Position numbers and translations under genes: made by a program. Under the pieces are notes generated by a model. The model did no database searches, was not told where the DNA came from, and was given only the letters and a program-made list of their open reading frames with translations. A stretch of 64,000 nt of DNA, from assembly GCA_964401385.1 (NCBI GenBank), contig CAYNYF010000007.1, forward strand, positions 3,206 to 67,205, given 5' to 3'. Shown in pieces: positions 12,741 through 28,696 of the stretch (the first letter of the stretch is position 1; each line of letters starts with the position of its first letter). Source of the stretch: an uncultured Planctomycetaceae bacterium (GTDB lineage Bacteria > Planctomycetota > Phycisphaerae > SM23-33).

Positions 12741-13520
12741 TCAGCGGCGCTTGGCGTCGGGTCCGTCCGACGGCAGGGCGATGGTGAAGCAGGTGTTCTT
12801 GCCGGGCTGGCTTCGAACGCTGATCCGCCCCTTGAGCGATTGGACGATCTCCCGGCAGACGGCCAGGCCCAGGCCGGTGCCGTCGCCGTTCCTGGTGGTG
12901 AAGAAGGGCTCGAAGATGCGCTGGCGATTCTCCGGCGGGATTCCTACGCCGGTGTCGGCCACGCGAATGAACGTCTCGCCGTTGCGGCGGGAGGCGGAAA
13001 TGCTGATGCTCTGGCCCCCGCCCTTTTTCAGCACGGCCGTGCGGGCGTTGAGCAGCAGGTTCAGCAACACCTGCTTCAGCTCCACCGGGCGCGTGGTGAT
13101 CTGGAACTTCGGCGACACCTTCCGAATCAGAACGATGCCGTCCTTGGACGGGGCCCGCGCCATCGCCGCCAGGGTTTCCTCGACGAGTTGGGCGACGGGG
13201 ATGGTCTGGACCTGCTGGGGGTCGTCGCAGGTCAGATGCAGCAGCGCCTGGCAGATGGCGGCGGCGCTGTCGTAGCCCTTGCGAGCGCGGCGGAGGGAGC
13301 TCCGGCAGCTCGTCTCGTCGCCTTCATCGGCCAGGTCCAGCCGGCCGATGACGTGCGTGAGAATGTTGTTGATCTCGTGAACGATCATGCTGGTGATGGT
13401 GCCGACCGTCACCAGCCGTTGCGCCCGGCGAAGCTGATCGTCGAGGGCGCGGACCTCATCGCGAAGCTGTGCGACGAGACGGTTCCGCCCCACGACGCCG
13501 ACAGTAACAGCGCTGGTCAT
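12741..13520 (-). CDS. sensor-less histidine kinase (HisKA plus HATPase_c only)
   Basis: H-box ITSMIVHEINNILT. N-box LLNLLLNARTA. G-boxes VADTGVGI and GTGLGLAV. No TM or sensor domain. No adjacent response regulator. Confidence 0.85.
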   Translation of the reverse strand: MTSAVTVGVVGRNRLVAQLRDEVRALDDQLRRAQRLVTVGTITSMIVHEINNILTHVIGRLDLADEGDETSCRSSLRRARKGYDSAAAICQALLHLTCDDPQQVQTIPVAQLVEETLAAMARAPSKDGIVLIRKVSPKFQITTRPVELKQVLLNLLLNARTAVLKKGGGQSISISASRRNGETFIRVADTGVGIPPENRQRIFEPFFTTRNGDGTGLGLAVCREIVQSLKGRISVRSQPGKNTCFTIALPSDGPDAKRR

Positions 13521-16058: not shown

Positions 16059-19000
16059 TCAAACATCGCTGCGGCCCGCTTGGCTGGCGCGCCCGCACAA
16101 CCCCGCGCAGGCGCAGCCCGCACAGGGCTCCGCGCCGCCGCCGGACGGGCGGCGGGCGAACCGCCCGGTCCGCCGCGAGCGGGTGAGGTTTTTCGCCAGC
16201 TCGCCCAGGCGCCTGGCCAGGCCGGCCAGCGCCGCCCCGCCCACGGCAAAGCTGTGCCCGCGCCCCGGCCGGAGGAAGTACACCGTCGCGTCGGCGACGT
16301 TTTGCCCGAGGTGCCCGGCGGCCGCGGCCGCATACATCATCATCTGCAACTCATACCGGGCGGCGCGGGCGCCCACGTCGGCAGCGGCGAGGCGATCGGA
16401 CTTGTAGTCCACCACGTGCCAGTCGCCCCCGGCGTCCTGGTAGAGAAGATCGATCTTCCCGGAGACGTCCAGCCCGGGCCCGCGGAAGAGGAAGGACAGC
16501 TCGCGCAGCCGCCGGCCGGCGCCGCAGAGTTCGCCCAGCAGCGGATGCTCGGCCAGGCGGCCCAACATCTCGGTCAGTTCGCCGGCCAGCTCGGCCGGGT
16601 CGACGGAAAGCTCGCGCTCGGCCAGCGCCCGCCCCACCAGGGACCGGGCGTGGGCGGCGACCTCCCCCGCTCGCGGCGACCGGAGGCAGTCGAAATTCAC
16701 CAGCTCCATGCATCGATGGAAGACCGTGCCGGCGGTGGCGGCATCGAGCAGTTTTCCCGACGGCGGGCCGGCACCGCCGCCGGCAAGGACGTCCACGGGC
16801 ACGCGCAGCTCGTGGCGCCAGCGGTACAGCATGGGGCAGTGGGCGAAATCGACCAGCGCCGTCGCGGCGATCCTGCCGGCGGGGCCTGCCTCCGGCAGCG
16901 GACCGACCAGCGCCAGCTCGCCCGCCTTGCCCGCCCGGGTGAGGGCGTCGGCCAGCCGAGACGCGTCCGCCGCGGCGGCCGCCATCTTCCGCCCGATCGG
17001 CCGGCGCCGCCCTCCGCCGCGGGACGGGGCGCTCGGAGTGATGCGAGCCAGGCGGGCGAAAAAGCCGTCGCCGTAGCCGATCCGGTCCGCCCCGCGCTCC
17101 AGGGCGCCGGCGACGTCGAGCACACCGTCGAGCTGGGCGAGGTAGCTGCCCGAGTCGCGGAAGCGGCCGTCCCTGTCGCGCCAGTCGGCGCCGACCAGGA
17201 TCAGGTGGTCCTGATGGCGCGTGACGGCGACGTACAGCTTGCGGACGTCCTCGGCCGCCAGTTCGTCCCGCTCGGCCTGTTTGGCCAGGCGATACGACAG
17301 CGGCTCACCCGCGGCGTCCCCGCCGTCATCGTCCTCGACGAGACCCGGCGGCTTGTAGGCGATTCCCCAGTCCCGGCGAAACAGCAGCGGCCCGCGCGGT
17401 CCCATCCGCCCGGCGTTCAGGTCGGGAACGACCACCACCGGGAACTCCAGCCCCTTGGCCTTGTGGATGGTCATGATGCGGACGACGTCCTCGGCCTCGC
17501 CGGCGACGGCGGCCTGCTCGTAGCGCGATTCGGCCAGCACCAGCTCGCCGTAGCGCTGAACGAAATCGGCCAGCGTCATCCGCCCGGCGCTCTGCGCCGA
17601 CCGGGCCGACTCCAGCAGCCGATACACGTTGGCGAGCTTCCGCCGGCCGTGGAATTGGCTCAGCAGCGCGGCCGCGTAGCCCGTCTGGCTCAGCAGCGTC
17701 TCGATCAGGCCGGCGGCCCCGAGGGCGTCCTTGCCGCGGTGCAGCCGCCCGAGCAGGTCGCGGGCGAACCGGAGCTGCTCCCGCTGCGGCGCCGCCAGGT
17801 GGGCGAGTACCTCCGGGGCGGCAAGCCGCTGGAAGTACGGCGGGCTCGCCGCCAGGGCCACGTGCAGCAGGACGTTGTCGTTCAGCCCAAACATCGCGCT
17901 GCGGAGCGCGCCGAACAGGGCCACGTCGTCGAACGGGTTGTCGATCGCCCGCAGGGCGTTGAGGACGTCGTACACCTCCTGCTGCCGGAAGAAGCCGGTG
18001 CCGGCCACGACGTAGTAGGCGACGCCGCGCTGCCGCAGGGCGCGCTCGTAGGCCAGGCTGTTGGTCCTGCGGGCCAGCAGAATGGCGACGTCGCCGGCCC
18101 GCGCCGGCCGCCACTGCTTCTTCCCGTGGTCGAAGACGGTTCTCCCCCGCCCGATTATCTCGGCGATCCGCCCGGCCACCACGTCGGCCTGGGCGACGGC
18201 GACGGCCTCGGCGTTGGGCTGCTCGCCGGCATCGGCCAGCAAAATCTCCACGCTCGCTCCCGGCGGCAGCTCCCGCCGCGAGGAGACGATCTCCTCGTAG
18301 CCGTCGCCCATCAGCCGCGAAAAAACGTGATTGATCAGCCCCACGCCGGCACCGTGGGCCCGGAACGTCTCGGTCAGCGGGATCCGCGCCTTGCCGAACC
18401 GGCCGCACAGCCGCTCGAAAACCTCCGCCTGGGCCCCGCGGAACCGGTAGATGCTCTGCTTCACGTCGCCGACGATGAAGATCTTGCCCGGCGGGGGGCT
18501 CTCGCCGTCGGTGAGGATCCCCCAGAGCATTTCGAGCTGGTGGGGGTCGGTGTCCTGGCATTCGTCGATGAGCATCTGGGAGAACTTCTTTCGCAGGCCC
18601 GAGCGGACGGAAGCATTCTCCCGCAGCAACCTGCGCGTCCGCAGGATCAGGTCGTCGAAGTCCAGCAGGCCCTGGCCGCGCTTGGCCCGGTCGTAGCGGC
18701 CGATCGCCTCCCGCGCCAGGGCGGTCAGCGTCGCCAGGCATCGAGCGGCCTCGGCGTCGGCGCCGCCGAGGTCCTCGAACCACACCGACAGTGCCGCGAA
18801 GCGCCCCACGAAGTCGCGCAGGCGGTCGCGGAACTGCTTCCGCGCGTCCTTGCCGCCCCAGGCCTTGGCGCCGCCGATGCCGCCGGGCTTATCCTTCAAT
18901 GAAGCCACGTCCTCCGCGGCGACCGACTCCGGCCGCTGAAGCATCCTGGCGATGACGGCGAGCTTCTCCTCCCGGTAGGCCAGCAGCCTGTCGGCCGGAT

Positions 19001-19775
19001 CGCTGCAAGGATACGCGGTGAGGTAGTTCAGCTCGTCGCGGGCGGCGGCGTCGCCGCTAAGGGCGGCCAGCGCCTCTCGCCGCAGCCGCTCGCGGACGCC
19101 CCGCCAGCGGGCCAGCGTCGCGTCGGGATCGGAGCAATCCTGGTCTTCCCAGGCGATGCGGTGGGACATGAGCGTCATCACGTCGCCGACGACGCGCCGC
19201 AGCTCCGCCCGCGCCAGCAGTTCCAGCACGTCCTCGCGGCGCTCGGCCGCGGCCGCCAGGACGGCCTGATCGGCCGCGTCGGCCTGCATCTGGGCGGTCA
19301 CCAGCTCGTCGGCACAGACGGCGAAGTCCGGGTCCACGCCCGCCTCGATTGCGTGCCGCCGCAGCAGCCACGCGCAGAAACTGTGGATGGTGGAGATGTG
19401 GGCGACCGGCAGCTCCGTGATCCAGTCGGCCAGCCGCTGCCGGTCCTCGTCGCTTCGGCTCTGCCGCAGCCCTTCCAGCAGCACCTCCCGCACGCGGGCG
19501 GCCATCTCCAGCGCCGCCTTGTCGGTGAAGGTCAACGCCACGAAGCGCTCGAAGGGGCTCTGCCCGCTGCCGGCGGTCCGCATGACCAGCTCGGTGAAGC
19601 GCCGCGCCAGCACCAGCGTCTTGCCGCAGCCGGCGCCGCTGGTCAACGCCAGGCTGTCGCCGGACCGCTCGACGGCGGCCTCCGCCTGGCGCGGGGTCAG
19701 TCGCGGCAGCCTACTCATGGCCGGCCTCCGAATCCGACTCGCCCGGGCCACTCCCGCCGGTCTTGCTCCGGGCAC
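16059..19775 (-). CDS. addA: ATP-dependent helicase/nuclease subunit A (AddA-type; UvrD-like helicase plus C-terminal PD-(D/E)xK nuclease)
   Basis: Walker A GAGCGKT. UvrD-family helicase motifs (TFTDKAALEM, IHSFC). C-terminal nuclease motif VVDYKSDRL...YELQMMMY. Alternative start at M20 (19718). Overlaps or abuts the addB stop. Confidence 0.85.
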   Translation of the reverse strand: MPGARPAGVARASRIRRPAMSRLPRLTPRQAEAAVERSGDSLALTSGAGCGKTLVLARRFTELVMRTAGSGQSPFERFVALTFTDKAALEMAARVREVLLEGLRQSRSDEDRQRLADWITELPVAHISTIHSFCAWLLRRHAIEAGVDPDFAVCADELVTAQMQADAADQAVLAAAAERREDVLELLARAELRRVVGDVMTLMSHRIAWEDQDCSDPDATLARWRGVRERLRREALAALSGDAAARDELNYLTAYPCSDPADRLLAYREEKLAVIARMLQRPESVAAEDVASLKDKPGGIGGAKAWGGKDARKQFRDRLRDFVGRFAALSVWFEDLGGADAEAARCLATLTALAREAIGRYDRAKRGQGLLDFDDLILRTRRLLRENASVRSGLRKKFSQMLIDECQDTDPHQLEMLWGILTDGESPPPGKIFIVGDVKQSIYRFRGAQAEVFERLCGRFGKARIPLTETFRAHGAGVGLINHVFSRLMGDGYEEIVSSRRELPPGASVEILLADAGEQPNAEAVAVAQADVVAGRIAEIIGRGRTVFDHGKKQWRPARAGDVAILLARRTNSLAYERALRQRGVAYYVVAGTGFFRQQEVYDVLNALRAIDNPFDDVALFGALRSAMFGLNDNVLLHVALAASPPYFQRLAAPEVLAHLAAPQREQLRFARDLLGRLHRGKDALGAAGLIETLLSQTGYAAALLSQFHGRRKLANVYRLLESARSAQSAGRMTLADFVQRYGELVLAESRYEQAAVAGEAEDVVRIMTIHKAKGLEFPVVVVPDLNAGRMGPRGPLLFRRDWGIAYKPPGLVEDDDGGDAAGEPLSYRLAKQAERDELAAEDVRKLYVAVTRHQDHLILVGADWRDRDGRFRDSGSYLAQLDGVLDVAGALERGADRIGYGDGFFARLARITPSAPSRGGGRRRPIGRKMAAAAADASRLADALTRAGKAGELALVGPLPEAGPAGRIAATALVDFAHCPMLYRWRHELRVPVDVLAGGGAGPPSGKLLDAATAGTVFHRCMELVNFDCLRSPRAGEVAAHARSLVGRALAERELSVDPAELAGELTEMLGRLAEHPLLGELCGAGRRLRELSFLFRGPGLDVSGKIDLLYQDAGGDWHVVDYKSDRLAAADVGARAARYELQMMMYAAAAAGHLGQNVADATVYFLRPGRGHSFAVGGAALAGLARRLGELAKNLTRSRRTGRFARRPSGGGAEPCAGCACAGLCGRASQAGRSDV

Positions 19776-22700
19776 GGTGCTTGGCGTAGTGGCAGATCTG
19801 GCGATACGGGCACCACTTCGGGCAGTCGCCGCCCGGCAGGGCGTCGAACCGCCCGGCCCGCATGCCCTGCACGCATCGCCCGACGGCGTTCATCGCAAAG
19901 GCCAGCTTCTCGGGGTATTCCGCATCCTCCTTAATCCGCCCGCGGGACACTCCGACACTGGCGAAATAGCGCTGGGCGTTCTCGCGCACGCCGTGATACG
20001 CCCCGCCGGCGCACGCCCGATCGAAGATCGCCTCCAGTGCCTCGGCGTACAGGGCAAGCTGGAGGTCGCGCCCGCTGAGGATGTCCTTGCCGGCCGGCAA
20101 GCGCCCGGACTTGTAGTCCACCGCCAGCAGGGCCGCGTCCGGTGCGACCTGATCGACGCGGTCGATCTTTCCTTCCAGGCGGATCCGCTCGCCGCCGGCG
20201 TCCAGCTCGACCGGCTCGGGCCTGCTGGCCGGGTCCATCCGCCCGGCCCGCCGCTGGGTGAGGCCGAAGCCCAGCTCGAAGCAGACCGCCTCGGTCGGCA
20301 AGACCGCCTGCCGCTGATCGGCCAGGTACGCCCACAGCATTTCCCGCCAGAATCCGGTCTGGACGTCCCACAAGGCCGAGTACATCGCCCTGTCGGCCAG
20401 CCGGCGCCTCTCGGCCTCGACGGCCTCGGCCAGCAGGGCCCGCAGCTCGCCCTCGTCGGTCTCGGCGAGCTTCACCGGCCCGCCGGCCCGCTCGCGCAGC
20501 GAGGTCATCACCCGCCACAGCACCGCGTGGCAGAAGCTGCCCATCGCCGCCGGCGTCATCCGCGCCTCCGGCTCCACCAGCGGCTCCAGGTGCAGCAGAT
20601 GCCGGGCGAAAAACTGCCAGGGGCAGCGGGCGTAGCTGTTGAGCTGGCTGGCGGAGAAGGTCCACTTGGCGGGAATTCGCTCGCCAAGCCCGGCCAGCAG
20701 CTTCGGATCGTCCAGCCGCCCGTCGAAGGCGTCGACCTCGCCCGCCCGCCAGCGGCGGTCGGCGGCGAAGATGCCGAAGCTGGCGCGGCGCAGCCATTCA
20801 GGGCGGTGCCGCCGGGCCCAGCCCAACAGCGCCGCCGGGCGATACTTGGCCTCCGCCTCGTCGCTGAAGGCGGCGAAGACGGCGGCGTTGAAGGCGTCGG
20901 CCGGCGAGGAAAGCTCATCCGGCGGCGGCACGAACTCGCCCGGGCCGATCCGCTCGCGCCGGCAGGGGGCGCCTTGGCGCTCGCCGGTGGAGGCCAGTTC
21001 CTCCAGGAAGCTGCTGGCGGCATGCGGCCGGCCGGACGCCTCGGCCGTCAGGAAGCTGACGGTCAGGGCCTCGTCGGCCCGCGTCGCCGCCAGGTAGAAC
21101 AGCAGCATCTCCCGGGCGATCAGGTCGCTGCGGCTATCCAAAGCCACGCCGCGGGCGGCCCACGCCAACCGGTCGGACTCGGCGATGAAGCACGTCTCCT
21201 GCGCCAGCCGCGGAAACGCCCGCTCGTTCACCCCGAGCAGATACACCCGCCGGAAGCGCAGCGACCGCCCGTCCAGCACGTCCAGGACTTCGGCAAGCGA
21301 TTCGGCGCGGGCCGGCGGGCAGACGGCCGCCTCGGCCAGGCGCGAGACCAGCTCGGTCAGCTCCTCCGCGCGGCTTCGCCCGGCCGGGGAGAGCGGGGCC
21401 TCCGTCAGGTCCTCCAGCAGCTCGTCGAACGCCCGCAGGGCCCGGAGGTCCGCGGCCACGGACGCGTCGTCCTCGACACCGACCGCGGGCGACTCATCCG
21501 AAATTCGGAGCCTTTCCACCACGGCCGCGGGGAGCTGTAGCTCGCCGATCAGCTCGCGGACGGCCCGGACGTACGCGCCGACGTCCTCGGGCGCGGCCAG
21601 CCGATCCAGCCGCGCCATCAGTGCCGCCAGCATCGCCCCGGCCCGCTCGATGGCTTCGGCGTCGGCGGACAGCGGACCCAAGGCCACCGTCTCCTCGTCC
21701 TCGGCGAACTCCTCGCCGCCGCTTCGCGCGCGATCGGCCAGCCGCCGGAACGCCCGCGAATACTCCGTCCGCCCGCCCAGGACGTTGGCCGTGCGGATGG
21801 CCATCTCCGCCGTCGCCACCGTTGCCGCGTCCAGGCCGGCTCCCAGAGCGCCCGGGCGGAAGTAGCTGTTCCGGATCACCGCCAGCACGTCGTGGAACGC
21901 ATACGCCGGCGGCAGCGACAGCAGCCGCAGGATGAACCGCACCACCCCGCAGGCGTCCAGCCGCGTCGGGCGCGAGGCGACGGGCACGTCGTGGGCGGCA
22001 AAGATCCGCCGAATCGGCTCTTCGTAGCCGCTCAGGTCCCGCGCCATCACCGCGACGGACCCGGGCTCGGCGCCGCCGGCCAGATCGGCCTTGACCGCGC
22101 GGGCGACGGCGCGGACCTCGGCCTCCACGTCGGCTGCGGCCAGGACGGTCACCGAAATCGCGGGCCCGCCCGTCGCGGCCGCGGCGCTTGCCGGCTCGGA
22201 GGCACGCGCTCGCCCTTTCTTGCCGCCGGGCAGGTCAAAGAGGCTCTCGAACGGATCGCCGCCGGGCTCGGCGGCCGTGACTTCCGAGCCGGGAATCGCC
22301 CGGCGAATCCGCTGGAGCGTCCGCTCCGTCCAGAACCACATGCGCCGGCGCCGCGGCTGGGCGGCGAACGGCAGCGTGATGAGCATGCTGTCCACGCGCC
22401 GGGCCAGCAGCGAGAGGATCTCCAACTGCGTCGGGGTGAAGTCGGTGAAGCCGTCGACGCCCACGGCCGCGATGGCGGGATAGCCCAACGGGGCGCCCTC
22501 GTCGCGGGCGAGCACGTCGCGGGCCAGCCACATCAGCCCCTCTACGTCGAAGCGCTCGGCCTTCCGCAGTTGGTCCTGATAGCGCCGATACACGCTCAGC
22601 AGGTCGGCGTCCTTGCCGCTGGACGGGTCGATGGCCTTTGCCAGCGCCTCCGGCTCCACGGCCGCCCGCTTGAGTTCGGCGATGGCCGCGTCCAACGCCG

Positions 22701-23211
22701 TCACCAGCCCCGGGGCGTCGCTCAGCGGCCCCAGGGCCCGCAGCCCGCCGGCGGCAGTGGGGCGGTTGACGATGCTCCAGAGCAGCAGCCGGCGGTGCAC
22801 AGTATTAAGGATGCGGGCGGGCCGGCCCGCGGCAGACAGAATGCCGGCAGCCAGGCCGGCGAAGGTCGTCACCGCCGGCGCGATCAGCACGCCCGTCTCC
22901 GACAGCTCCAGCAGCCGCTGCCGCATGTGGGCGGCGGCCGGGACGTTGGGCACGATCAGAAGGCATCCCGCCCGCCCGAGCTCGTCCATGCGCCGCCGGT
23001 ACAGCTCCAGCACGGCCGTCGTCTTGCCGCACCGGGCCGGGCCGGTCAGTATCGTCACTGACGCCGCGCCCGCGCGCGTCGCTGGCGAAGGCTCCAGATG
23101 CTTTCCCCTGTCCGGCACGCCGATATTGTGGCAGCCCGGCCGGCGTTCCACAAGCCGGCGGAGCGCGGCGGCGGCTTGGGGGTGGATGCGAAAGGCAGTT
23201 GACAATACCAT
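19711..23211 (-). CDS. addB: ATP-dependent helicase/nuclease subunit B (AddB-type, inactivated-helicase plus nuclease with Fe-S cluster)
   Basis: Walker A-like GPARCGKT. C-terminal RecB-family nuclease motif VDYKSGRL...LQLALYA. Four-Cys Fe-S staple (CPWQFF ... GGDCPKWCPYRQIC). Immediately upstream of and overlapping addA. Confidence 0.8.
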   Translation of the reverse strand: MVLSTAFRIHPQAAAALRRLVERRPGCHNIGVPDRGKHLEPSPATRAGAASVTILTGPARCGKTTAVLELYRRRMDELGRAGCLLIVPNVPAAAHMRQRLLELSETGVLIAPAVTTFAGLAAGILSAAGRPARILNTVHRRLLLWSIVNRPTAAGGLRALGPLSDAPGLVTALDAAIAELKRAAVEPEALAKAIDPSSGKDADLLSVYRRYQDQLRKAERFDVEGLMWLARDVLARDEGAPLGYPAIAAVGVDGFTDFTPTQLEILSLLARRVDSMLITLPFAAQPRRRRMWFWTERTLQRIRRAIPGSEVTAAEPGGDPFESLFDLPGGKKGRARASEPASAAAATGGPAISVTVLAAADVEAEVRAVARAVKADLAGGAEPGSVAVMARDLSGYEEPIRRIFAAHDVPVASRPTRLDACGVVRFILRLLSLPPAYAFHDVLAVIRNSYFRPGALGAGLDAATVATAEMAIRTANVLGGRTEYSRAFRRLADRARSGGEEFAEDEETVALGPLSADAEAIERAGAMLAALMARLDRLAAPEDVGAYVRAVRELIGELQLPAAVVERLRISDESPAVGVEDDASVAADLRALRAFDELLEDLTEAPLSPAGRSRAEELTELVSRLAEAAVCPPARAESLAEVLDVLDGRSLRFRRVYLLGVNERAFPRLAQETCFIAESDRLAWAARGVALDSRSDLIAREMLLFYLAATRADEALTVSFLTAEASGRPHAASSFLEELASTGERQGAPCRRERIGPGEFVPPPDELSSPADAFNAAVFAAFSDEAEAKYRPAALLGWARRHRPEWLRRASFGIFAADRRWRAGEVDAFDGRLDDPKLLAGLGERIPAKWTFSASQLNSYARCPWQFFARHLLHLEPLVEPEARMTPAAMGSFCHAVLWRVMTSLRERAGGPVKLAETDEGELRALLAEAVEAERRRLADRAMYSALWDVQTGFWREMLWAYLADQRQAVLPTEAVCFELGFGLTQRRAGRMDPASRPEPVELDAGGERIRLEGKIDRVDQVAPDAALLAVDYKSGRLPAGKDILSGRDLQLALYAEALEAIFDRACAGGAYHGVRENAQRYFASVGVSRGRIKEDAEYPEKLAFAMNAVGRCVQGMRAGRFDALPGGDCPKWCPYRQICHYAKHRARSKTGGSGPGESDSEAGHE

Positions 23212-23276
23212 TGCCGCCCGCGTGCCGATAAAGACAACAACGGCTTTGCGGCCCGCCGGCCGGTAGGAGACAGTGC

Positions 23277-25943
23277 GTGCCCGTTGCGTATTCCGTCGAG
23301 ACCTGCCGGGCGCTGGCCCGGGCCTTCGAGAAGGCCCGGGTGCTGCGCCCGATGCGGATCGGCCGATACGATCCGGGCACGGAGCTCGCGCTGGAAGTGG
23401 CCGGCGTGGCCCCGCGGCGGCGGGCGCGGGTGCGCCTGCGGCTGGAGGAGTTCGTCGGCGGGGGCTTCGCCGGGCAGGTGTACCGGGTGAGAGTCCTCTC
23501 GGCCGAGGGCGAGCACATCGACGGCCTGGAGGTCGACGCCCGCTGCGCCGTGAAGATCCTGCTGCCGCCGTCGTCGGCCAAGCGCAGGTTCCGCGACGCG
23601 CTGTTCCGGGCGGGCTTCCAGGGGGCGTTCGCCCCCCAGGTCAACCCCGCGGCCGCCCGGGCCGGGGCCATCTGGCAGAAGCTCATCCGAAGGGGCGCCC
23701 GGATTGGCCTCGGCGGCGAACGCGCCGTCGTGGACGTGCTGGCGACGTTCTTCGATCCCGGCCTGGGAAGCTGCGGCGAGATCAGCGAGTGGGTCGACGG
23801 GCGGGACTGGCGCTTCGAGGCCGACGACCGCCTGGACGACCGCAAGCGCTGGCTGCGGGGTAAGTCCGTCCCGCCGGAGCGGCTGGGCTCGGCGGAGTAT
23901 CGGGCGAAGCGGGCGTTCATGCAGCGGCTGACGGCGCTGCTGCACGAGATGGGCGCCGGCGAGCTGGCCCGCCAGTACGAATGGTGGACGGCCAAGAGCC
24001 AGCCCAACGTGCTCAAGCGCCGCGGCGACGAAGCCGACCCCGCCGCCGCCCTGACGGCGGTGGACTTCCGCGCCGGGCTGGCGCTGCTGCCGCTGCTGCC
24101 GATGAGTCCGGCCGACGTGAAGCTCATCGGCAAGGGAATCGCCCGCGGATCGCTGGTGCAGTTCGACCGCGGCGACATGGGCAAGCTCCAGCGGTTCGTG
24201 GACGCCCACGCCGCCGACTTCGCCGACCTGGGCGACGCCCTGGACGAGCTGAAGGTCCTGGAGCGGGAGTATCGCGAATCGCTGCCGGACGTGGCCCACC
24301 ATCACGTCCGGCTGCTGTACAGCGGGCGGCTGTGGTCGGGCATTCTACGCGGCATGGTGACGGGCTGGCGGTCCCGCGGCATCGTTGACGACCGCGCCGC
24401 CGACCGCCTGCGGGCAAGCCGCTTCGGCACGATACTCTTTGCCCTGCTCGGCCTGGCGCCGCTGGCGTCGCTGGCGGGCGCCGCGGGCGTGCTGATCTGG
24501 TTCTTGGCGGCGGGCAGGCTGAGCTGGTCCCTGGCCGGCCTGGCCGCGGGCGCGGGCATCGGCCTTGCCCTCATCGCCACGCTGGGGCGGCGGCTGTGGG
24601 GGCGAGCGGACCTGCGCCGGCATTACGGGCGGATGCTGGCAAGCCCCGGCTATTTCCGCCGGGCCGTGCGGGCGCTGGCGGCCGAAATGCTCACCGACTG
24701 GCACCGGGGCGGGCGCGTCAGCGCCGAGCGGGCAATGAAGCTGCTGGGCAGCCCCGTGAGAATCTTCGCCCACACGGTCCTGCTCGCCTGGATGCCGGCG
24801 AGGCTGCATCGCTTCTTGACGGATCGGCGTTTCGCCTGGTCGGCGGTCAAGCGGCTCGTGGCCCGGCCGGTGCGGCTGTACTTCAACCCCGCCCTGCGCG
24901 AGCAGTGGCTGCGCGAGATGGTGGCCGAGGGCCGCGCCAACGGCATGCTCACCGACCAGGAAGCCGACCACATCACCGCCCGCATCCGGGAGCCCTTCAT
25001 CCAGAAATATCTCAAGAGCCTGGCCGTCCACGTCTGCACGCTGCCGGTCACGCAGATCGTCTCGGTGGCGGTGGCGATCACCTACGTGCTGCAACACCCG
25101 GAGCTTTCCTTCTCCGAGGCGACGATCCGGGCGGGGTTGATCCTGGGAGCCTTCCAGGTAACGCCCATCTCGCCGGGCTCGCTGGTCCGCGGGCTGTACG
25201 TGGTCGGCCTGGTGCTGCGCGAGCGGAACTTCAAGGACTACAACATCGCGGTCTTCCTGGGCTTTTTCAAATACATCGGGTACCTGGCCTTCCCAGTGCA
25301 GATGGCGTATCGGTACCCGGCGCTGGCGCGGTTCATGGCCGGGCGGTGGGCGACGGGGGCGGCCCACGTCGTGCCCGTCTTCGGCGAGCGCGGGGCGCTG
25401 CTGGAGCACGGCGTCTTCGACGCCTTCTACAACCGCCTGCTGACGCTGCGGCGGCGGTTTCGGGAAAAGGACGAGGCCCGCCGCGGCCGAAGGCCCAGGC
25501 TTTGGCATCTTCCCCTGTGCGTGCTGGTCGGGCTGGGTGCGTTCGTGCTGATCGAAGTGCTGTTTATGCTGTCCCGCGGCCACGTGCCGGCGCCCGGGGC
25601 GATGTGGTGGCTGGCGGTGTGGCCGCCGCTTCTAGCGGGAGCGGTCGCGGCCGGGGCCGGCGGAGGCGCCGCCGTCAGCAAGCGCATCCTGATGGGCTTG
25701 GGCGTCGGGGTCGCCATGGCGATCGTCTACGGGATTGCCAACACGACCCTGGGCGTGCTCGCGGCGGCCGGACACTCCCGGCCGGGAGGGGCGGGCATCG
25801 TCGAGGCCGGCAGGCTCCTCTGGCCGTTCCTGGTCGGAAGTCTGTGGCGGCTCTTTCTGCTGCCGATCCTGTCCACGCTCGGGGCGTTCCTGGCCGAGAC
25901 GAGGCTCCCCCCGCCGAGGAGATCGCCCGTTCCGGGCGGTTAG
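23277..25943 (+). CDS. membrane protein with N-terminal UbiB/ABC1-like atypical protein-kinase-fold domain (catalytic Asp apparently substituted) fused to C-terminal polytopic membrane domain
   Basis: Gly-rich loop GGGFAGQVYRV. VAIK-like CAVKIL. Hinge VLATFFDPG...EWVDG, compare ABC1 VLVMEWIDG. Catalytic-loop analogue WTAKSQPNVL, compare HADPHPGN. DFG-like VDFRAG. At least 8 predicted TM helices follow in the C-terminal half. Confidence 0.6.
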   Translation: MPVAYSVETCRALARAFEKARVLRPMRIGRYDPGTELALEVAGVAPRRRARVRLRLEEFVGGGFAGQVYRVRVLSAEGEHIDGLEVDARCAVKILLPPSSAKRRFRDALFRAGFQGAFAPQVNPAAARAGAIWQKLIRRGARIGLGGERAVVDVLATFFDPGLGSCGEISEWVDGRDWRFEADDRLDDRKRWLRGKSVPPERLGSAEYRAKRAFMQRLTALLHEMGAGELARQYEWWTAKSQPNVLKRRGDEADPAAALTAVDFRAGLALLPLLPMSPADVKLIGKGIARGSLVQFDRGDMGKLQRFVDAHAADFADLGDALDELKVLEREYRESLPDVAHHHVRLLYSGRLWSGILRGMVTGWRSRGIVDDRAADRLRASRFGTILFALLGLAPLASLAGAAGVLIWFLAAGRLSWSLAGLAAGAGIGLALIATLGRRLWGRADLRRHYGRMLASPGYFRRAVRALAAEMLTDWHRGGRVSAERAMKLLGSPVRIFAHTVLLAWMPARLHRFLTDRRFAWSAVKRLVARPVRLYFNPALREQWLREMVAEGRANGMLTDQEADHITARIREPFIQKYLKSLAVHVCTLPVTQIVSVAVAITYVLQHPELSFSEATIRAGLILGAFQVTPISPGSLVRGLYVVGLVLRERNFKDYNIAVFLGFFKYIGYLAFPVQMAYRYPALARFMAGRWATGAAHVVPVFGERGALLEHGVFDAFYNRLLTLRRRFREKDEARRGRRPRLWHLPLCVLVGLGAFVLIEVLFMLSRGHVPAPGAMWWLAVWPPLLAGAVAAGAGGGAAVSKRILMGLGVGVAMAIVYGIANTTLGVLAAAGHSRPGGAGIVEAGRLLWPFLVGSLWRLFLLPILSTLGAFLAETRLPPPRRSPVPGG

Positions 25944-25956
25944 GCGGAAGAGTTTC

Positions 25957-26442
25957 CTACCATCGCAGCAGGACTCTCAGGAATAGTTGGCAGGCGATGT
26001 TGGCGTATGCGCCGGCGACGAGGTCGTCGGTGAGTATCCCCCAGCCCGCCGGGAGCTTCTCGAGCCCGCGGGCCGGCGGGGGCTTGAGCACGTCCAGGAT
26101 GCGGAACGCGACAAAGGCAGCGGCCGCGACGATGAACACGCCGGAAATGCCCCCCCGAATCGGCAGGAAGCACAAGGCCACCGCCTGGCCGGCCCATTCG
26201 TCTATGGTGCACTGGGAGGGATCTTTCCGGCCGAAGGCGCTCTCGGCGAACTTGCCCCAGGCCAAGCAGGCGGCCGAGGACAAGACGGCCAGCACGATCA
26301 TCGCCGCCCCAATGGCATAGACGTTCGCCCGAGTCAGCCAGGCTGCCACAAGGAACACACCCACCGCCGCCGCCGAGCCCCAGCTACCCGGGGCCACCGG
26401 CAGGTAACCCGTGCCAAATCCCGTCAGAATCAGCTTCCGCAC
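25957..26442 (-). CDS. pgpA: phosphatidylglycerophosphatase A
   Basis: GFGTGYLPVAPGSWGS..., ...DEWAGQ... and ...ILDVLKPPP motifs typical of PgpA. 161 aa. Confidence 0.85.
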   Translation of the reverse strand: MRKLILTGFGTGYLPVAPGSWGSAAAVGVFLVAAWLTRANVYAIGAAMIVLAVLSSAACLAWGKFAESAFGRKDPSQCTIDEWAGQAVALCFLPIRGGISGVFIVAAAAFVAFRILDVLKPPPARGLEKLPAGWGILTDDLVAGAYANIACQLFLRVLLRW

Positions 26443-26466: not shown

Positions 26467-27183
26467 TCATGCCTCCGGAGCATCGTCTCCGTCCTCGCGG
26501 CGGTCCGGCGGAGGCGCCGGCGGCCTGTCCGAGGCCCGCTCCGGGGCCAGCAGCCCCCGGGCCCTGTTTACGTAAGCCAGCCCGCTAAATACGGTTACGA
26601 TCACCGCTAGCCACACCAGAAACAGCCTCACGCTCACCGCCCACGGGGTCTTCGGCAGATTGGCAAGCTGGAAGAGCACCGCGCAAATGGCCATCGACTG
26701 GGCGGTGATCTTCAGCTTGCCCCAGACGGAGGCCTCGAACTTCTGGCCGATCGCCTCGCTGTAGCCGCGAATCCCGGAGACGACGAATTCCCGCGCCACC
26801 ACCGCCACCACCATCCAGGCCTGGACGCCGCTGGCCATGTTGCCGGTCAGCCAGGGCGGCAGGCCGCTCTCGAACCGCCCGACCAGCCCCTCTCTCAGGG
26901 CGAAGCTGAAATTGCTGCCGGTCAGAAGGGTAAAGGCCCCGCAGACCAGCACCTTGTCCACGAACGGGTCGGTGACGCGCCCAAAGGCGGTGATCCGGTT
27001 CCACTTCCGCGCCAAGTACCCGTCCAGCACGTCGGTGATGCTGGCCACGACGTACAGGGCGAAGCAGACGTTCAGGAGGTGGCTGGCGTCGCCGGGCAAT
27101 TCGTACATCGCCAGCAGGACGAAGAAGACGCCCGACACGGCCAGTCGCCCCACGGTAAGCCGATTCGGCAGGTTCCAATCCAT
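26467..27183 (-). CDS. pgsA: CDP-diacylglycerol--glycerol-3-phosphate 3-phosphatidyltransferase
   Basis: CDP-alcohol phosphatidyltransferase motif DVLDGYLAR...GRVTDPFVDK. Start placed at the internal Met (MDWNLPNRLT). The upstream extension to 27216 is likely not translated. Confidence 0.85.
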   Translation of the reverse strand: MDWNLPNRLTVGRLAVSGVFFVLLAMYELPGDASHLLNVCFALYVVASITDVLDGYLARKWNRITAFGRVTDPFVDKVLVCGAFTLLTGSNFSFALREGLVGRFESGLPPWLTGNMASGVQAWMVVAVVAREFVVSGIRGYSEAIGQKFEASVWGKLKITAQSMAICAVLFQLANLPKTPWAVSVRLFLVWLAVIVTVFSGLAYVNRARGLLAPERASDRPPAPPPDRREDGDDAPEA

Positions 27184-27259
27184 GCAATTCTCACTACGGC
27201 GGCTGGACGGGCGCACGCGGCGGACGCCCGCACATCCGCGCGACCTTCGACAAGACAGA

Positions 27260-28696
27260 CTATCCGTTTACGACGTCCGCCGCTCCGGCGTCGACTTTCA
27301 CGATAAGGTCATAGTCGTCGAAGTCCACGACTTTCCCTTCGACAATCCTGCCGACAGGCGGGGCGGCGGCCCCCGAAGCCGGCCGATCAACCCCGGCCCC
27401 TGCCGGCCTGAGGATGCACAAGCTGTCCACCTCCGGGGCCTGCCCGGCGTGCCGCCCGACGCAGCGCCCGGCCGGGTCGATCCCGTCCACCAGCACCGCC
27501 ACCTTCGAGCCGACGCGGGCGGCGTTGGCGGCGAAGGCAATCTCCTGCTGCGCCTGCATCAGCAGCTCCCGCCGACGGGTCTTCACCTGCCGGCTGACTT
27601 GCCCACGCAGTCCGGCCGCCGTCGTGCCCGGCTCGGGCCAGTACGTGAACACGCCCATAGCCTCGAAACGGGCGGCCCTGACGAACTCCAGCAGTTCCTG
27701 GAACTGCCCGGGGCTCTCCTGCGGGAAGCCCACCAGGAAGGTCGTCCGCAGGCTGATCCCGGGGACGCGCCGGCGCAGGGTCGCCAGCAGGCTCTCGGCG
27801 CGCACCCGATCGTATCGCCGGCGCATCAGTTTCAGGATTTTGTCCGAGATGTGCTGGAGCGGCAGGTCGAGGTAGTTCACGATTCGCGGGCATTCGGCGA
27901 TGGCGTCGATGATCGGCTCGGTCAGCCTGCCGGCGTTGGCGTACATCAGCCGCAGCCAGCGCAGCCCCGGCAGCGCATCCAGTCGCCGCAGCAACGTTTC
28001 CAGGTTGGTTCCGTCGTCGAAGTCGCTGCCGTAAGCGGTCGTATTCTGGGCGATCAGAACGAGTTCAATGGCGCCGTCGGCGATCAGCTCGGCCGCCTCG
28101 TCGAGCACGATGTCCATCGGCTTGGACCGCAGCGGCCCGCGAATGCCGGGGATCGAGCAGAAGCTGCAACCGGTGCTGCAACCTTCGGCGATGCGGAGGT
28201 AGGCGGTGTGCCGGGGGGTGAGGCGCAGCCGACCGCGGTCGTCGGGGCAGTCTTTCCGGCCGATTCGGCCGACGCGGATGAAAGGGCTCTGCCGGGAGGT
28301 CACGGCCGAGACGATCTCGTCGCGATGGAACAGGCCGACGATCGCGTCGACCTCGGGGACGGCCGAAAGCAGCTTCCCACCCTCGCGCTGCGGCAGGCAG
28401 CCGGTCACCACCACCCGCCGGACGCGCCCCTGGCGCTTCTTCTCCAGGGCCTCCCGGATCGCCTCCATGGCCTCCTCCCGGGCCGGCGGGATGAAGGCGC
28501 AGGTGTTGATCAGGATGACGTCCGCCTGGTCGGTGGGCGCGCCGACCAGGCAGCCCGCCTCGGCCAGCAAGGCAAGCATCTTCTCACTGTCGATCAGCGC
28601 CTTGGGACAGCCCAAAGAGACCACCGCGATACGCAAGGGACCGCTCGCCGGCATGACCGCCATGATAAAGCTCAAAGCGAGACGGTAAAAGCCCAA
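27260..28696 (-). CDS. rimO: ribosomal protein S12 methylthiotransferase RimO (MiaB-family radical SAM plus TRAM)
   Basis: N-terminal MTTase Cys (GCPKA, NTCAF). Radical SAM CSTGCSFCSIP. C-terminal TRAM (GRIVEGKVVDFDDYDLIVKV). True start may be the internal Met at 28663. Confidence 0.8.
   Translation of the reverse strand: MGFYRLALSFIMAVMPASGPLRIAVVSLGCPKALIDSEKMLALLAEAGCLVGAPTDQADVILINTCAFIPPAREEAMEAIREALEKKRQGRVRRVVVTGCLPQREGGKLLSAVPEVDAIVGLFHRDEIVSAVTSRQSPFIRVGRIGRKDCPDDRGRLRLTPRHTAYLRIAEGCSTGCSFCSIPGIRGPLRSKPMDIVLDEAAELIADGAIELVLIAQNTTAYGSDFDDGTNLETLLRRLDALPGLRWLRLMYANAGRLTEPIIDAIAECPRIVNYLDLPLQHISDKILKLMRRRYDRVRAESLLATLRRRVPGISLRTTFLVGFPQESPGQFQELLEFVRAARFEAMGVFTYWPEPGTTAAGLRGQVSRQVKTRRRELLMQAQQEIAFAANAARVGSKVAVLVDGIDPAGRCVGRHAGQAPEVDSLCILRPAGAGVDRPASGAAAPPVGRIVEGKVVDFDDYDLIVKVDAGAADVVNG

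What the first reader, a model, noticed from the sequence alone, without database searches (positions are those of the whole stretch)
23277..25943. UbiB/ABC1-like kinase-fold domain with altered catalytic loop fused to a large polytopic membrane domain, next to phospholipid-synthesis genes
The N-terminal 250 aa carry a Gly-rich loop (GGGFAGQVY), VAIK-like Lys (AVKIL), hinge (EWVDG) and DFG-like (VDFRAG) in ABC1 order. The position of the ABC1 catalytic HADPHPGN is occupied by WTAKSQPN, with Asp replaced. The C-terminal half is at least 8 TM helices. The gene is divergently transcribed from addBA and sits directly beside pgpA-pgsA. UbiB-family proteins are implicated in lipid/quinone handling. 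A membrane-embedded, possibly pseudo-kinase version is unusual.
Basis: inference. Interest (0 to 1): 0.6.

Follow-up and report, generated by a model that had tools for sequence, protein, structure and literature searches.

The report
Kinase-like membrane protein partnered with PgpA
This gene belongs to a large, unnamed bacterial protein family that joins a kinase-shaped, apparently ATP-binding domain lacking the usual catalytic residue to a membrane module with no known structural relative; in Planctomycetota the family is repeatedly fused to, or sits in an operon-like position beside, PgpA, the enzyme that completes synthesis of the membrane lipid phosphatidylglycerol, which suggests an undescribed step or control in lipid synthesis.

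Summary
Structure prediction plus Foldseek confirm that the N-terminal ~345 residues have a protein-kinase-like fold. It is not UbiB/ABC1: there is no Pfam hit even at E<=10, hhalign against UbiB gives 4%, and the KxGQ extension, Ala-rich loop and HxDxHPGN loop are absent. Across 246 full-length relatives the Gly-rich loop, Lys93, Asn244 and Asp263 are about 99% conserved. The catalytic-base position is never acidic among the commonest residues (Cys/Met/Ala/Leu/Trp/Phe). The remainder comprises a hydrophobic hairpin, a K/R-rich cytoplasmic helical domain, a small conserved membrane core (PxSPGSxxRG, VPVFGERGALLEH) and a clade-specific four-helix tail. It has no Pfam match and no structural relative in the PDB. 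The family is large (>=2,893 clusters at 90% identity, >=585 species genomes), is annotated 'hypothetical', and I found no description of it. The main new result is a link to PgpA in three arrangements: convergent neighbour (this window), same-strand operon-like pair with 1-40 nt gaps (24 loci), and C-terminal fusion (35 clusters). It most likely acts as an ATP-dependent partner of PgpA on phosphatidylglycerophosphate or phosphatidylglycerol; that mechanism is inferred, not shown.

The parts
23277..25943 (+). Whole gene, 888 aa, GTG start; member of an unnamed family of kinase-fold membrane proteins
   Evidence: ORF. At least 2,893 homologues at 53-93% identity over the full length, none with a Pfam domain. 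N-terminus aligns with those of homologues.
23382..24311 (+). Protein-kinase-like (PKL) domain, residues ~36-345, preceded by a short N-terminal extension (residues 1-35, one helix)
   Evidence: AF2 gives a beta-rich N-lobe and a helical C-lobe, with pLDDT 86-96 in the N-lobe and 53-71 around the catalytic and activation segments. The Foldseek PDB top 50 are all protein kinases (GSK3b, CK2a, STRAD complex) at probability 1.00, E 1e-3 to 6e-3, 212-252 aligned columns in all but one hit.
23457..23483 (+). Gly-rich loop GGGFAGQVY (residues 61-69), matching GxGxxGxV
   Evidence: G61 245/246, G63 243/246, G66 242/246, V68 244/246. Aligned to the kinase G-loop of CLK2 by HMMER.
23553..23555 (+). Lys93, equivalent to the VAIK lysine (AVKIL)
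   Evidence: K in 243/246 and R in 3. Aligned to the VAIK Lys of CLK2.
23985..24008 (+). Altered catalytic loop WTAKSQPN (residues 237-244). Asn244 is kept; the catalytic-base position 239 is Ala. It is preceded by invariant R232-Q233 and W236.
   Evidence: N244 243/246. Position 239: C142, M52, A20, L16, W8, F5 as the six commonest residues, none acidic. R232 and Q233 are each 244/246. S241 is 241/246 and Q242 is 242/246.
24063..24077 (+). DFG-like DFRAG (residues 263-267)
   Evidence: D263 243/246, G267 244/246. Followed by a low-confidence segment at 266-271.
24414..24602 (+). Hydrophobic hairpin (residues 380-442). It is two long helices in this clade and a single 21-residue Pro/Gly-broken stretch in most relatives.
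   Evidence: Hydropathy. AF2 helices 382-411 and 417-442. Present as an insertion relative to Aminicenantes members.
24603..24992 (+). K/R-rich helical domain (residues 443-572), inferred to be cytoplasmic
   Evidence: In the window protein the stretch between the flanking hydrophobic segments has 28 K+R against 12 D+E; in P0042 it is 30 against 12. AF2 predicts all-helical structure. Y459 and W475 are invariant.
24993..25481 (+). Conserved membrane core (residues 573-735): a long helix, then a helix-break-helix carrying PISPGSLVRG (630-639, nt 25164-25193), FPxQM, LARFMA, and the invariant loop VPVFGERGALLEH (699-711, nt 25371-25409)
   Evidence: R638 243/246, P700/G703/G706 244/246, E710 243/246. 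This core is retained even in short variants whose kinase motifs are degenerate. No Pfam hit. No PDB fold match: best E 2.3, probability <=0.14.
25482..25940 (+). Clade-specific C-terminal tail of four hydrophobic helices (residues 736-888). It is absent from divergent members and replaced by a PgpA domain in the fusion clade.
   Evidence: Divergent members of 680-720 aa end at about profile position 695. Fusions carry PgpA at this position. The tail itself is not PgpA-like: hhalign probability 0.2%.
25957..26442 (-). pgpA (phosphatidylglycerophosphatase A), convergent neighbour 13 nt from the stop codon; the family's recurrent genomic partner
   Evidence: Pfam PgpA 7.3e-34. PgpA lies next to family members in 35 of 87 loci, on the same strand with 1-40 nt gaps in 24 loci, and is fused in 35 clusters.
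26467..27216 (-). pgsA (CDP-diacylglycerol--glycerol-3-phosphate 3-phosphatidyltransferase), which makes the substrate of PgpA
   Evidence: TIGR00560 pgsA 4.1e-34, 118.7 bits, above the cut-off of 109.1. Pfam CDP-OH_P_transf 7e-31. Adjacent only in the window's own clade.
16059..23211 (-). addA (16059-19775) and addB (19711-23211), divergently transcribed; context only
   Evidence: Pfam UvrD-helicase, UvrD_C, PDDEXK_1 and ADDB_N. The synteny is limited to Phycisphaerae-like relatives.

Best explanation
The gene encodes a member of an undescribed, widespread family of inner-membrane proteins. Shown here: an N-terminal protein-kinase-like domain keeps every residue needed to hold Mg-ATP (Gly-rich loop, Lys93, Asn244, Asp263) but has no catalytic-base Asp and no conserved acidic residue within the predicted alphaC helix. 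After it come a hydrophobic hairpin, a K/R-rich helical domain and a small, extremely conserved membrane core with no recognisable relative. In Planctomycetota the family is tied to PgpA by gene fusion, by tight same-strand gene pairs and by adjacency. Inferred: the kinase-like and helical domains lie on the cytoplasmic face, and the protein works together with PgpA on the last step of phosphatidylglycerol synthesis. The most likely mechanism is that ATP binding or hydrolysis by the kinase-fold domain drives or gates the membrane core, which holds the phosphorylated head group of phosphatidylglycerophosphate (or a related anionic lipid), possibly through the invariant Arg638 in the PxSPGSxxRG hairpin. 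The lipid would then be presented to PgpA, or PgpA's activity would be controlled. This resembles how the COQ8/UbiB ATPases chaperone lipid intermediates. It does not act as a protein kinase.
For: Fold: AF2 pLDDT 81.6, pTM 0.75; the top 50 Foldseek PDB hits are all protein kinases at probability 1.00. Selection on the nucleotide pocket: G61/G63/G66/K93/N244/D263 are conserved in 242-245 of 246 members drawn from several phyla, whereas purely scaffolding pseudokinases such as the MviN domain have lost these residues (PMC12599244). No catalytic base: position 239 shows only C/M/A/L/W/F among its six commonest residues. PgpA link in three independent arrangements: 35 fusion clusters (P0143 plus P0130 and 33 further clusters from its search), 845-915 aa, 51-65% identical to P0130, on contigs up to 218 kb, with 31-32 retaining PgpA acidic motifs; pgpA upstream on the same strand in 25 loci, with gaps of 1-40 nt in 24; convergent adjacency in 9 loci including the window. 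PgpA is the top cluster in an unbiased neighbour clustering. The membrane core is the most conserved part and survives in variants whose kinase motifs have decayed, which suggests the kinase-fold domain is the accessory or energising part. Positive-inside rule: the helical domain has 28-30 K+R against 12 D+E. Precedent for a kinase-fold ATPase that hands lipid intermediates to enzymes: COQ8 (PMC13418538).
Against: There is no biochemical evidence of any kind. The PgpA link was detected only in Planctomycetota; Aminicenantes and Desulfobacterales copies have unrelated neighbours. In the window itself pgpA is on the opposite strand, so it is not co-transcribed. COQ8 needs its active-site Asp for ATPase activity, and this family lacks the equivalent residue, so hydrolysis would need other residues; the invariant R232/Q233 are candidates, but their geometry could not be inspected. 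The catalytic-loop and activation segments of the model have only pLDDT 53-71. Foldseek E-values for the kinase fold are modest (about 1e-3) with rmsd 7-9 A.
Confidence: 0.42

Rival explanations
1. It is a catalytically active but atypical transferase. The kinase-fold domain would transfer phosphate or AMP from ATP to an acceptor that is already anionic, such as the phosphate of phosphatidic acid, PGP or a polyprenyl phosphate, or a carboxylate. No catalytic base would then be needed. The product would be a new or transient lipid species that PgpA processes.
For: All Mg-ATP-binding residues are about 99% conserved while the base position is never acidic among the commonest residues; that pattern fits acceptors that need no deprotonation. 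The invariant Arg638 in a PxSPGSxxRG helix-break-helix and the invariant loop VPVFGERGALLEH could form a binding site for a lipid phosphate. The protein is coupled to a lipid-phosphate phosphatase. A kinase-fold putative lipid kinase paired with a lipid phosphatase has been proposed elsewhere (bioRxiv 10.64898/2026.09.18.752743). From general knowledge, kinase-fold proteins without canonical residues can carry out other chemistry (SelO AMPylation, SidJ glutamylation).
Against: A kinase permanently fused to a phosphatase acting on the same head group would form a futile cycle. Short family variants have lost the Gly-rich loop and Asn244 but keep the membrane core, which argues that the kinase-fold pocket is not the essential catalytic centre. 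No product or substrate is known.
Confidence: 0.2
2. It is a non-catalytic pseudokinase scaffold or sensor. The domain would bind nucleotide, or nothing, purely as a structural or allosteric element that anchors or regulates PgpA or other envelope enzymes, without turning over ATP.
For: Two of the five canonical catalytic elements are missing: the HRD Asp and a conserved acidic residue within the predicted alphaC helix. Precedent exists in the MviN/MurJ pseudokinase domain, which regulates an envelope-lipid transporter (PMC12599244). A subfamily has fully degenerate kinase motifs.
Against: The near-total conservation of Gly-loop, Lys, Asn and Asp across phyla differs from scaffolding pseudokinases such as MviN, which have lost VAIK and DFG and do not bind ATP. 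It implies at least functional Mg-nucleotide binding.
Confidence: 0.2
3. The PgpA association is only lineage-specific synteny plus a single fusion event, and the protein works in an unrelated membrane process such as transport or envelope sugar/LPS metabolism.
For: No PgpA lies near the gene in Aminicenantes or Desulfobacterales. Aminicenantes copies follow a same-strand block of KdsA/KdsD/KdsC-like, PMM and ManC-like genes. The window's pgpA is convergent.
Against: Three different physical arrangements with the same partner (fusion, tight same-strand pair, convergent pair) occur in different Planctomycetota clades, which is hard to explain by inherited synteny alone. The fusion clade has diversified to 51-65% identity while 31-32 of 35 clusters keep PgpA motifs. 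No other neighbour recurs across clades.
Confidence: 0.1
4. It is a divergent member of the UbiB/ABC1 family acting on quinone or lipid intermediates.
For: The Gly-loop-to-Lys segment (AGQVY...A[VL]K[IV]L.P) and the hinge (EWVDG) resemble UbiB's IAQVH...VIKVIRP, and hhalign aligns the N-lobes co-linearly over 91 columns. Both are membrane-associated kinase-fold proteins.
Against: No Pfam ABC1 hit at E<=10, against 2.4e-77 for E. coli UbiB. Only 1 of 26 members hits ABC1, at E=0.13, the same level as Pkinase. hhalign probability is 2.9-4.1%. KxGQ occurs in 2 of 246 members, and the N-terminal extension has a median of 57 aa. The loop is Gly-rich rather than Ala-rich, and HxDxHPGN is replaced. 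The top 50 Foldseek hits are eukaryotic-type kinases, with no ADCK3/COQ8 entry among them. There is no quinone gene context.
Confidence: 0.03
5. It is a conventional membrane-bound Ser/Thr protein kinase used for signalling.
For: The best structural matches are eukaryotic-type protein kinases.
Against: The catalytic Asp is absent in the whole family. There is no Pfam Pkinase hit. No extracytoplasmic sensor domain is present. The housekeeping-like, apparently single-gene distribution with lipid-enzyme partners does not fit a signalling kinase.
Confidence: 0.03

Closest known systems
UbiB / ABC1 / COQ8 (ADCK3) atypical kinase-like ATPases (Pfam PF03109)
   Same: Both have a protein-kinase-like fold attached to the membrane and are associated with lipid-pathway enzymes. 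Short local resemblance exists in the Gly-loop-to-Lys segment and the hinge. The proposed mode of action, a kinase-fold nucleotide engine handling a membrane lipid for partner enzymes, is modelled on COQ8 (PMC13418538).
   Different: It is not a sequence member. It lacks the long N-terminal extension with KxGQ. Its loop is Gly-rich rather than Ala-rich, and it lacks the catalytic Asp of HxDxHPGN. The non-kinase part is much larger and unrelated, and the partner is PgpA rather than quinone enzymes.
MviN/MurJ C-terminal pseudokinase domain of Actinobacteria (ActPs3 family; PDB 3UQC)
   Same: Both are kinase-fold domains that lack catalytic residues and are covalently joined to a membrane protein handling an envelope lipid (PMC12599244).
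   Different: In MviN the pseudokinase follows a 14-helix MurJ transporter, has lost VAIK Lys and DFG, and cannot bind ATP or Mg. Here the domain is N-terminal and keeps Lys, Asn, Asp and the Gly-loop at about 99%. The membrane part is not MurJ-like: the weak PDB hit 6cc4 is inflated by a chance match to the BRIL-MurJ junction, and Foldseek finds nothing.
Eukaryotic-type protein kinases (Pkinase, PF00069), e.g. GSK3-beta and CK2-alpha
   Same: They are the best structural matches (probability 1.00, 212-252 aligned columns in 49 of the top 50). The GxGxxGxV loop, Lys, catalytic-loop Asn and DFG Asp occur in the canonical order.
   Different: Only 9-16% identity, rmsd 7-9 A, E about 1e-3. No Pfam hit. 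No HRD Asp and no conserved acidic residue within the predicted alphaC helix.
Kinase-fold putative lipid kinase paired with a PAP2 lipid phosphatase (SEAE1 module, bioRxiv 10.64898/2026.09.18.752743)
   Same: A previously undescribed kinase-fold protein is genomically coupled to a membrane lipid-phosphate phosphatase and is interpreted as a phospholipid-homeostasis module.
   Different: SEAE1 keeps an intact catalytic core and occurs in a single genus. Its phosphatase belongs to the PAP2 family, not PgpA. No homology with the present family was tested.
PgpA (PF04608), phosphatidylglycerophosphatase A
   Same: It is the recurrent partner. Sources name the fusion relatives 'phosphatidylglycerophosphatase A' because PgpA is their only recognised domain.
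   Different: The window protein contains no PgpA domain. PgpA makes up only the last ~150 residues of the fusion proteins.

Membership tests
UbiB/ABC1 (PF03109) | Significant match to the Pfam ABC1 profile | tested here: not met
   There is no hit for the whole protein at E<=1 or for residues 1-345 at E<=10. The positive control, E. coli UbiB, scores 2.4e-77. Only 1 of 26 diverse members hits, at E=0.13.
UbiB/ABC1 (PF03109) | Long N-terminal extension carrying the KxGQ motif that covers the substrate site | tested here: not met
   K.GQ occurs upstream of the Gly-loop in 2 of 246 members, and the extension has a median length of 57 aa with one predicted helix. The role of the extension is taken from PMC13418538; the KxGQ motif itself comes from general knowledge and is visible in E. 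coli UbiB (K70-x-G72-Q73).
UbiB/ABC1 (PF03109) | Ala-rich nucleotide loop and HxDxHPGN catalytic loop | tested here: not met
   The family has GGGFAGQVY (Gly 242-245 of 246) and WT[CMA]KSQPN. UbiB has ASASIAQVH and HADMHPGN.
UbiB/ABC1 (PF03109) | Profile-profile similarity to UbiB | tested here: not met
   hhalign gives probability 2.9% against E. coli UbiB and 4.1% against a 15-sequence UbiB alignment. Caveat: the UbiB alignment has low diversity (81-96% identity to E. coli UbiB).
Protein-kinase-like (PKL) fold superfamily | Bilobal fold with a beta-rich N-lobe and helical C-lobe, structurally similar to kinases | tested here: met
   AF2 model. The Foldseek PDB top 50 are all protein kinases at probability 1.00, and 301 matches have E<=10.
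Protein-kinase-like (PKL) fold superfamily | Nucleotide/Mg-binding residues: Gly-rich loop, VAIK Lys, catalytic-loop Asn, DFG Asp | tested here: met
   Conserved in 242-245 of 246 members.
Catalytically competent protein kinase | Catalytic-base Asp (HRD) five residues before the Asn | tested here: not met
   Position 239: C142, M52, A20, L16, W8, F5 as the six commonest residues, none acidic.
Catalytically competent protein kinase | AlphaC Glu forming a salt bridge with the VAIK Lys | tested here: inconclusive
   No conserved acidic residue lies between residues 95 and 147. E148 (86% D/E) lies after the predicted helix. Model coordinates could not be inspected.
Pseudokinase (sequence definition: at least one of VAIK Lys, HRD Asp, DFG Asp missing) | Absence of at least one of the three residues | tested here: met
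   The HRD Asp is absent, while Lys and the DFG Asp are present. Whether the protein is catalytically dead is not testable with these tools.
PgpA (PF04608) | PgpA domain present in the protein itself | tested here: not met
   The window protein has no Pfam hit. Its tail against a PgpA profile gives hhalign probability 0.2%. Thirty-five related clusters do carry the domain.
MurJ/MOP flippase | Sequence or fold similarity of the membrane part to MurJ | tested here: not met
   The only hit is the chimera 6cc4 at E=0.028, driven by 'YIQKYLKSLA' spanning the BRIL-MurJ junction. Foldseek on residues 346-888 returns no MurJ: best E is 2.3, to ABCD1.
Anti-phage defence proteins (PADLOC) | Match to a defence-system model | tested here: not met
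   Zero families at E<=0.01 for the window protein and three relatives.

The most novel reading that the evidence does not exclude
The family is a catalytically active, membrane-embedded enzyme of a new kind. A kinase-fold domain without a catalytic base would use ATP to phosphorylate or adenylylate the head-group phosphate of an anionic phospholipid held by a membrane module of novel fold. This would define an undescribed reaction in bacterial phospholipid metabolism, upstream or downstream of PgpA, that is widespread in anaerobic sediment bacteria (Planctomycetota, Aminicenantes, Desulfobacterales).
Probability: 0.2. Interest if true: 0.85.

Novelty: new variant of a known kind. Interest (0 to 1): 0.62.

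Why it matters
Three reasons. First, the family is large: at least 2,893 clusters at 90% identity and at least 585 species-level genomes. It is unusually conserved (over 50% identity across phyla) and has no Pfam, NCBIfam or PDB relative and no description in the searched literature, so it is a real gap in annotation. Second, kinase-fold proteins that keep the ATP pocket but lack the catalytic base have repeatedly turned out to perform unexpected chemistry or lipid chaperoning; a version built into the membrane and fused to a lipid phosphatase is a new architecture with a directly testable partner. Third, the last step of phosphatidylglycerol synthesis is still being worked out in many bacteria (for example PgpP, described in 2025, PMC11804483). 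An obligate PgpA partner in Planctomycetota would change how that step is understood. It would also correct the annotation 'phosphatidylglycerophosphatase A' now given to ~860-aa fusion proteins in which about 700 residues are unexplained.

Tried and rejected
Sequence and profile searches that found nothing:
- Pfam, NCBIfam and PADLOC scans of the whole protein, of each half and of diverse members gave nothing significant.
- PDB sequence and profile searches gave only noise. The MurJ chimera hit was rejected because it rests on a coincidental match to the engineered BRIL-MurJ junction.

UbiB tests:
- hhalign against UbiB gave 3-4%.
- The homologue search seeded with E. coli UbiB returned only enterobacterial sequences (81-100% identity), so the UbiB profile is shallow.
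- No ABC1 homologue was found in the ~1 Mb of fetched loci to widen it.

Structure searches:
- Foldseek of residues 346-888 alone found no relative.

Other ideas tested and rejected:
- The four-helix tail is not a decayed PgpA domain (probability 0.2%).
- No conserved lipid-gene context exists outside Planctomycetota. Aminicenantes show clade synteny with Kdo/sugar-nucleotide genes, and Desulfobacterales show mixed neighbours such as acyl-CoA dehydrogenase-rubredoxin, PMM and formyltransferase.
- Literature searches for the family, for PgpA fusions and for surveys of new kinase-like families found no description.
- The JGI label 'GNAT superfamily N-acetyltransferase' on two relatives has no domain support.

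Full report
**Observation.** The window contains an 888-codon ORF at 23277-25943 on the + strand with a GTG start. Its N-terminus (MPVAYSVETCR...) aligns with the N-termini of homologues. The neighbours are as stated: AddB (19711-23211, -) and AddA (16059-19775, -) are divergent, and PgpA (25957-26442, -), PgsA (26467-27216, -) and RimO (27260-28696, -) lie downstream on the other strand. The window is about 70% G+C, so the long antisense ORFs that overlap the gene are expected artefacts. The thousands of full-length homologues show that the + strand ORF is the real gene.

**A large, conserved, unnamed family.** The homologue search returned at least 2,893 clusters at 90% identity. The best 120 are 51-93% identical over the whole length; none has a Pfam domain, and the few named by a source are all called 'hypothetical protein' apart from two JGI 'GNAT' labels. 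They come from Phycisphaerae and other Planctomycetota and from Aminicenantes/Acidobacteriota. A scan of one genome per species found relatives in at least 585 genomes, also including Desulfobacterales and a few others. All but one of the top 80 are metagenome-assembled genomes; the exception is the Candidatus Aminicenans sakinawicola JGI record. An exhaustive profile search of 1.84 billion representatives found only 564 clusters at 50% identity, so the family is compact. More divergent members of 680-720 aa stop at about profile position 695 and therefore lack the last four helices. Pfam, NCBIfam, PADLOC and PDB sequence searches give nothing significant.

**The N-terminal domain has a kinase fold.** An AlphaFold2 model built on 38 sequences has mean pLDDT 81.6 and pTM 0.75. 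Residues ~36-345 form a beta-rich lobe followed by a helical lobe. Confidence is lower (53-71) around the catalytic and activation segments. All 50 listed Foldseek PDB matches are protein kinases (GSK3-beta, CK2-alpha, the LKB1-STRAD complex) at probability 1.00, with E of 1e-3 to 6e-3 and 212-252 aligned columns in 49 of 50. Identity is only 9-16% and rmsd mostly 7-9 A. HMMER independently aligns the Gly-rich loop and Lys93 with those of CLK2 and CDK13. The relationship is therefore real but distant.

**What is kept and what is lost.** In 246 full-length members the counts are as follows:
- Gly-rich loop G61/G63/G66: 245/243/242.
- Lys93: 243, with 3 Arg.
- Asn244: 243.
- Asp263: 243.
- Position 239, five residues before Asn244, where kinases carry the catalytic base: Cys 142, Met 52, Ala 20, Leu 16, Trp 8, Phe 5 as the six commonest residues, none acidic.
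- Residues 95-147, which should hold the alphaC helix: no conserved acidic residue.
- Family-specific invariants next to the loop: R232, Q233, W236, T238, S241, Q242.

By the sequence definition this is a pseudokinase. However, unlike scaffolding pseudokinases such as the MviN domain, which have lost the Lys and DFG and do not bind ATP (PMC12599244), the whole Mg-ATP pocket is under strong selection.

**It is not UbiB/ABC1.** E. coli UbiB, taken from the annotated genome, hits Pfam ABC1 at 2.4e-77, whereas residues 1-345 of the window protein have no ABC1 hit at E<=10. Of 26 diverse members, one gives ABC1 at E=0.13 and one gives Pkinase at E=0.1. hhalign probabilities are 2.9% against UbiB and 4.1% against a UbiB alignment. 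The aligned stretch is a co-linear N-lobe, as expected for any two kinase-fold proteins. KxGQ occurs in 2 of 246 members, and the extension before the Gly-loop has a median of 57 residues. The loop is Gly-rich rather than Ala-rich, and HxDxHPGN is absent. One caveat applies: my UbiB profile is shallow, because the search returned only enterobacterial sequences.

**The rest of the protein.** Hydropathy, the model and charge counts divide residues 346-888 into four parts:
- A hydrophobic hairpin (380-442). In most relatives this is a single 21-residue stretch broken by Pro/Gly. The next ~140 residues are strongly basic (28-30 K+R against 12 D+E), so by the positive-inside rule they are cytoplasmic like the kinase domain. 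The stretch is therefore a re-entrant anchor rather than a membrane crossing.
- A helical K/R-rich domain (443-572).
- A conserved core (573-735) with a long helix, a helix-break-helix carrying PISPGSLVRG (R638 in 243 of 246), FPxQM, LARFMA, and the invariant but low-confidence loop VPVFGERGALLEH.
- A four-helix tail (736-888) present only in some clades.

A separate model of residues 346-888 (pLDDT 80.9) has no meaningful PDB match: best E is 2.3 and probability is at most 0.14. A weak profile hit to a MurJ chimera (E=0.028) is inflated because the family motif FIQKYLKSLA happens to match the engineered BRIL-MurJ junction. Short variants of ~480-530 aa have lost the Gly-loop and Asn244 and lack the middle domain, yet keep the membrane core almost intact. 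This suggests the core is the primary functional unit.

**The PgpA link.** Scanning diverse members against Pfam showed that two 50%-identity clusters (P0130, P0143) end in a PgpA domain (E 1.3e-25 and 2e-15) exactly where the window protein has its tail. Searching with P0130 found 33 further clusters with the same architecture (34 with P0130, 35 with P0143). They are 845-915 aa, only 51-65% identical to P0130, lie on contigs up to 218 kb, and are named 'phosphatidylglycerophosphatase A' by their sources. Of the 35 fusion clusters, 31-32 retain PgpA's acidic motifs. Across 87 loci, PgpA lies next to the gene in 35, and it is the largest cluster in an unbiased neighbour clustering. In 25 loci (MAGs labelled Sedimentisphaerales, Phycisphaerales or 'Pirellulales') pgpA lies immediately upstream on the same strand, with stop-to-start gaps of 1-40 nt in 24. 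In 9 loci of the window's clade it is the convergent downstream neighbour, in most of them together with pgsA and in several with rimO. The window's tail is not a decayed PgpA (hhalign 0.2%). No PgpA was found near the gene in Aminicenantes or Desulfobacterales, whose neighbours are unrelated or reflect clade synteny.

**Interpretation.** Three things are shown: the architecture, the conservation pattern and the genomic coupling to PgpA. The rest is inferred. I propose that the protein sits on the cytoplasmic face of the inner membrane and works with PgpA on phosphatidylglycerophosphate or phosphatidylglycerol. The kinase-fold domain would act as a nucleotide-driven engine or switch for the conserved membrane core, as COQ8/UbiB ATPases chaperone lipid intermediates for their partner enzymes (PMC13418538). 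A fusion of a lipid-presenting or regulatory module with the phosphatase is natural, whereas a true kinase fused to a phosphatase acting on the same head group would cycle futilely. The main rivals are an atypical transferase acting on an already anionic acceptor, which would explain the missing base, and a non-catalytic scaffold. These cannot be separated without biochemistry or access to model coordinates.

**Comparison and novelty.** The domain belongs to the protein-kinase-like superfamily but to none of its described families. The remaining ~540 residues have no recognisable relative. I found no paper describing the family. The nearest concepts are COQ8/UbiB (which it may work like, but of which it is not a member), the MviN pseudokinase (a kinase-fold domain on an envelope-lipid membrane protein, but one that does not bind ATP), and a recently proposed kinase-fold lipid kinase plus PAP2 phosphatase module. 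I rate it a new variant of a known kind, with interest 0.62.

Noticed in passing
window 5449-11622 (+): A 2,057-aa ORF whose central ~1,000 residues are almost entirely Ala and Gln (for example 113 Ala and 89 Gln in one 300-residue block), with degenerate 21- and 51-nt repeats. This explains the local 78% G+C and AT skew of 0.54. The only domain signal is a weak DUF4175 hit (7.5e-05, below the cut-off).
   Followed up: partly
proteins P0167, P0177, P0178, P0186, P0189, P0226: These short family variants (446-532 aa) have lost the Gly-rich loop; in the three read (P0167, P0177, P0186) the Asn244 position is Arg, and all six lack the middle helical domain. They still keep the membrane core motifs (PxSPGSxxRGLYV, FPxQM, PALARF, GxPGxLLEH) almost unchanged. 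Their genomic context could not be looked up.
   Followed up: partly
protein P0144 (1,216 aa): This divergent member has a ~500-residue C-terminal extension. One A2 member gave a weak Pfam GDSL-lipase hit (E=0.02), and P0144 is the likely source because of its extension. Nothing passes E<=0.01.
   Followed up: partly
loci L028, L037, L042, L043, L050-L052, L056, L061 and others: In MAGs labelled Sedimentisphaerales and related Phycisphaerae the gene order is pgpA, this gene, then same-strand conserved hypothetical proteins of ~291 aa (22 loci) and ~202 aa (16 loci). In 13-14 loci these are followed by proteins that look like adenylosuccinate synthase and undecaprenyl-diphosphate synthase (UppS), as read from their sequences. 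The L050 291-aa and neighbouring 170-aa ORFs have no Pfam match, and L050 has a radical-SAM gene in between.
   Followed up: partly
loci L006, L011, L012, L019, L025, L034 and others: In Aminicenantes the gene follows a same-strand block: CTP synthase, KdsA-like, SIS-CBS (KdsD-like), HAD phosphatase (KdsC-like), phosphomannomutase and a ManC-like nucleotidyltransferase. This is envelope sugar metabolism and may simply be clade synteny.
   Followed up: no
window 23212-23276: Only 65 nt separate the annotated start of addB (- strand) from the GTG start of this gene (+ strand), so the two divergent promoters would have to overlap, unless the addB start lies further downstream.
   Followed up: no
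PDB 6cc4 vs family residues ~573-583: The family motif FIQKYLKSLA matches by chance the junction of the engineered cytochrome b562 (…AYIQKYL) and E. coli MurJ (KSLAAV…). This produces a spurious sub-threshold 'MurJ' hit, which is a trap for automated annotation.
   Followed up: yes
window 11619-12719 (+) and 12741-13520 (-): A 366-aa ORF has weak squalene-hopene-cyclase/prenyltransferase alpha-alpha-toroid repeats (7.6e-11, with no single stretch passing). Beside it lies a 259-aa histidine-kinase-type ATPase domain protein (HATPase_c 3.8e-28).
   Followed up: no
proteins P0035 and P0052: JGI names these two family members 'GNAT superfamily N-acetyltransferase', but no acetyltransferase domain is detectable in the family (P0035 is in alignment A1).
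   Followed up: partly
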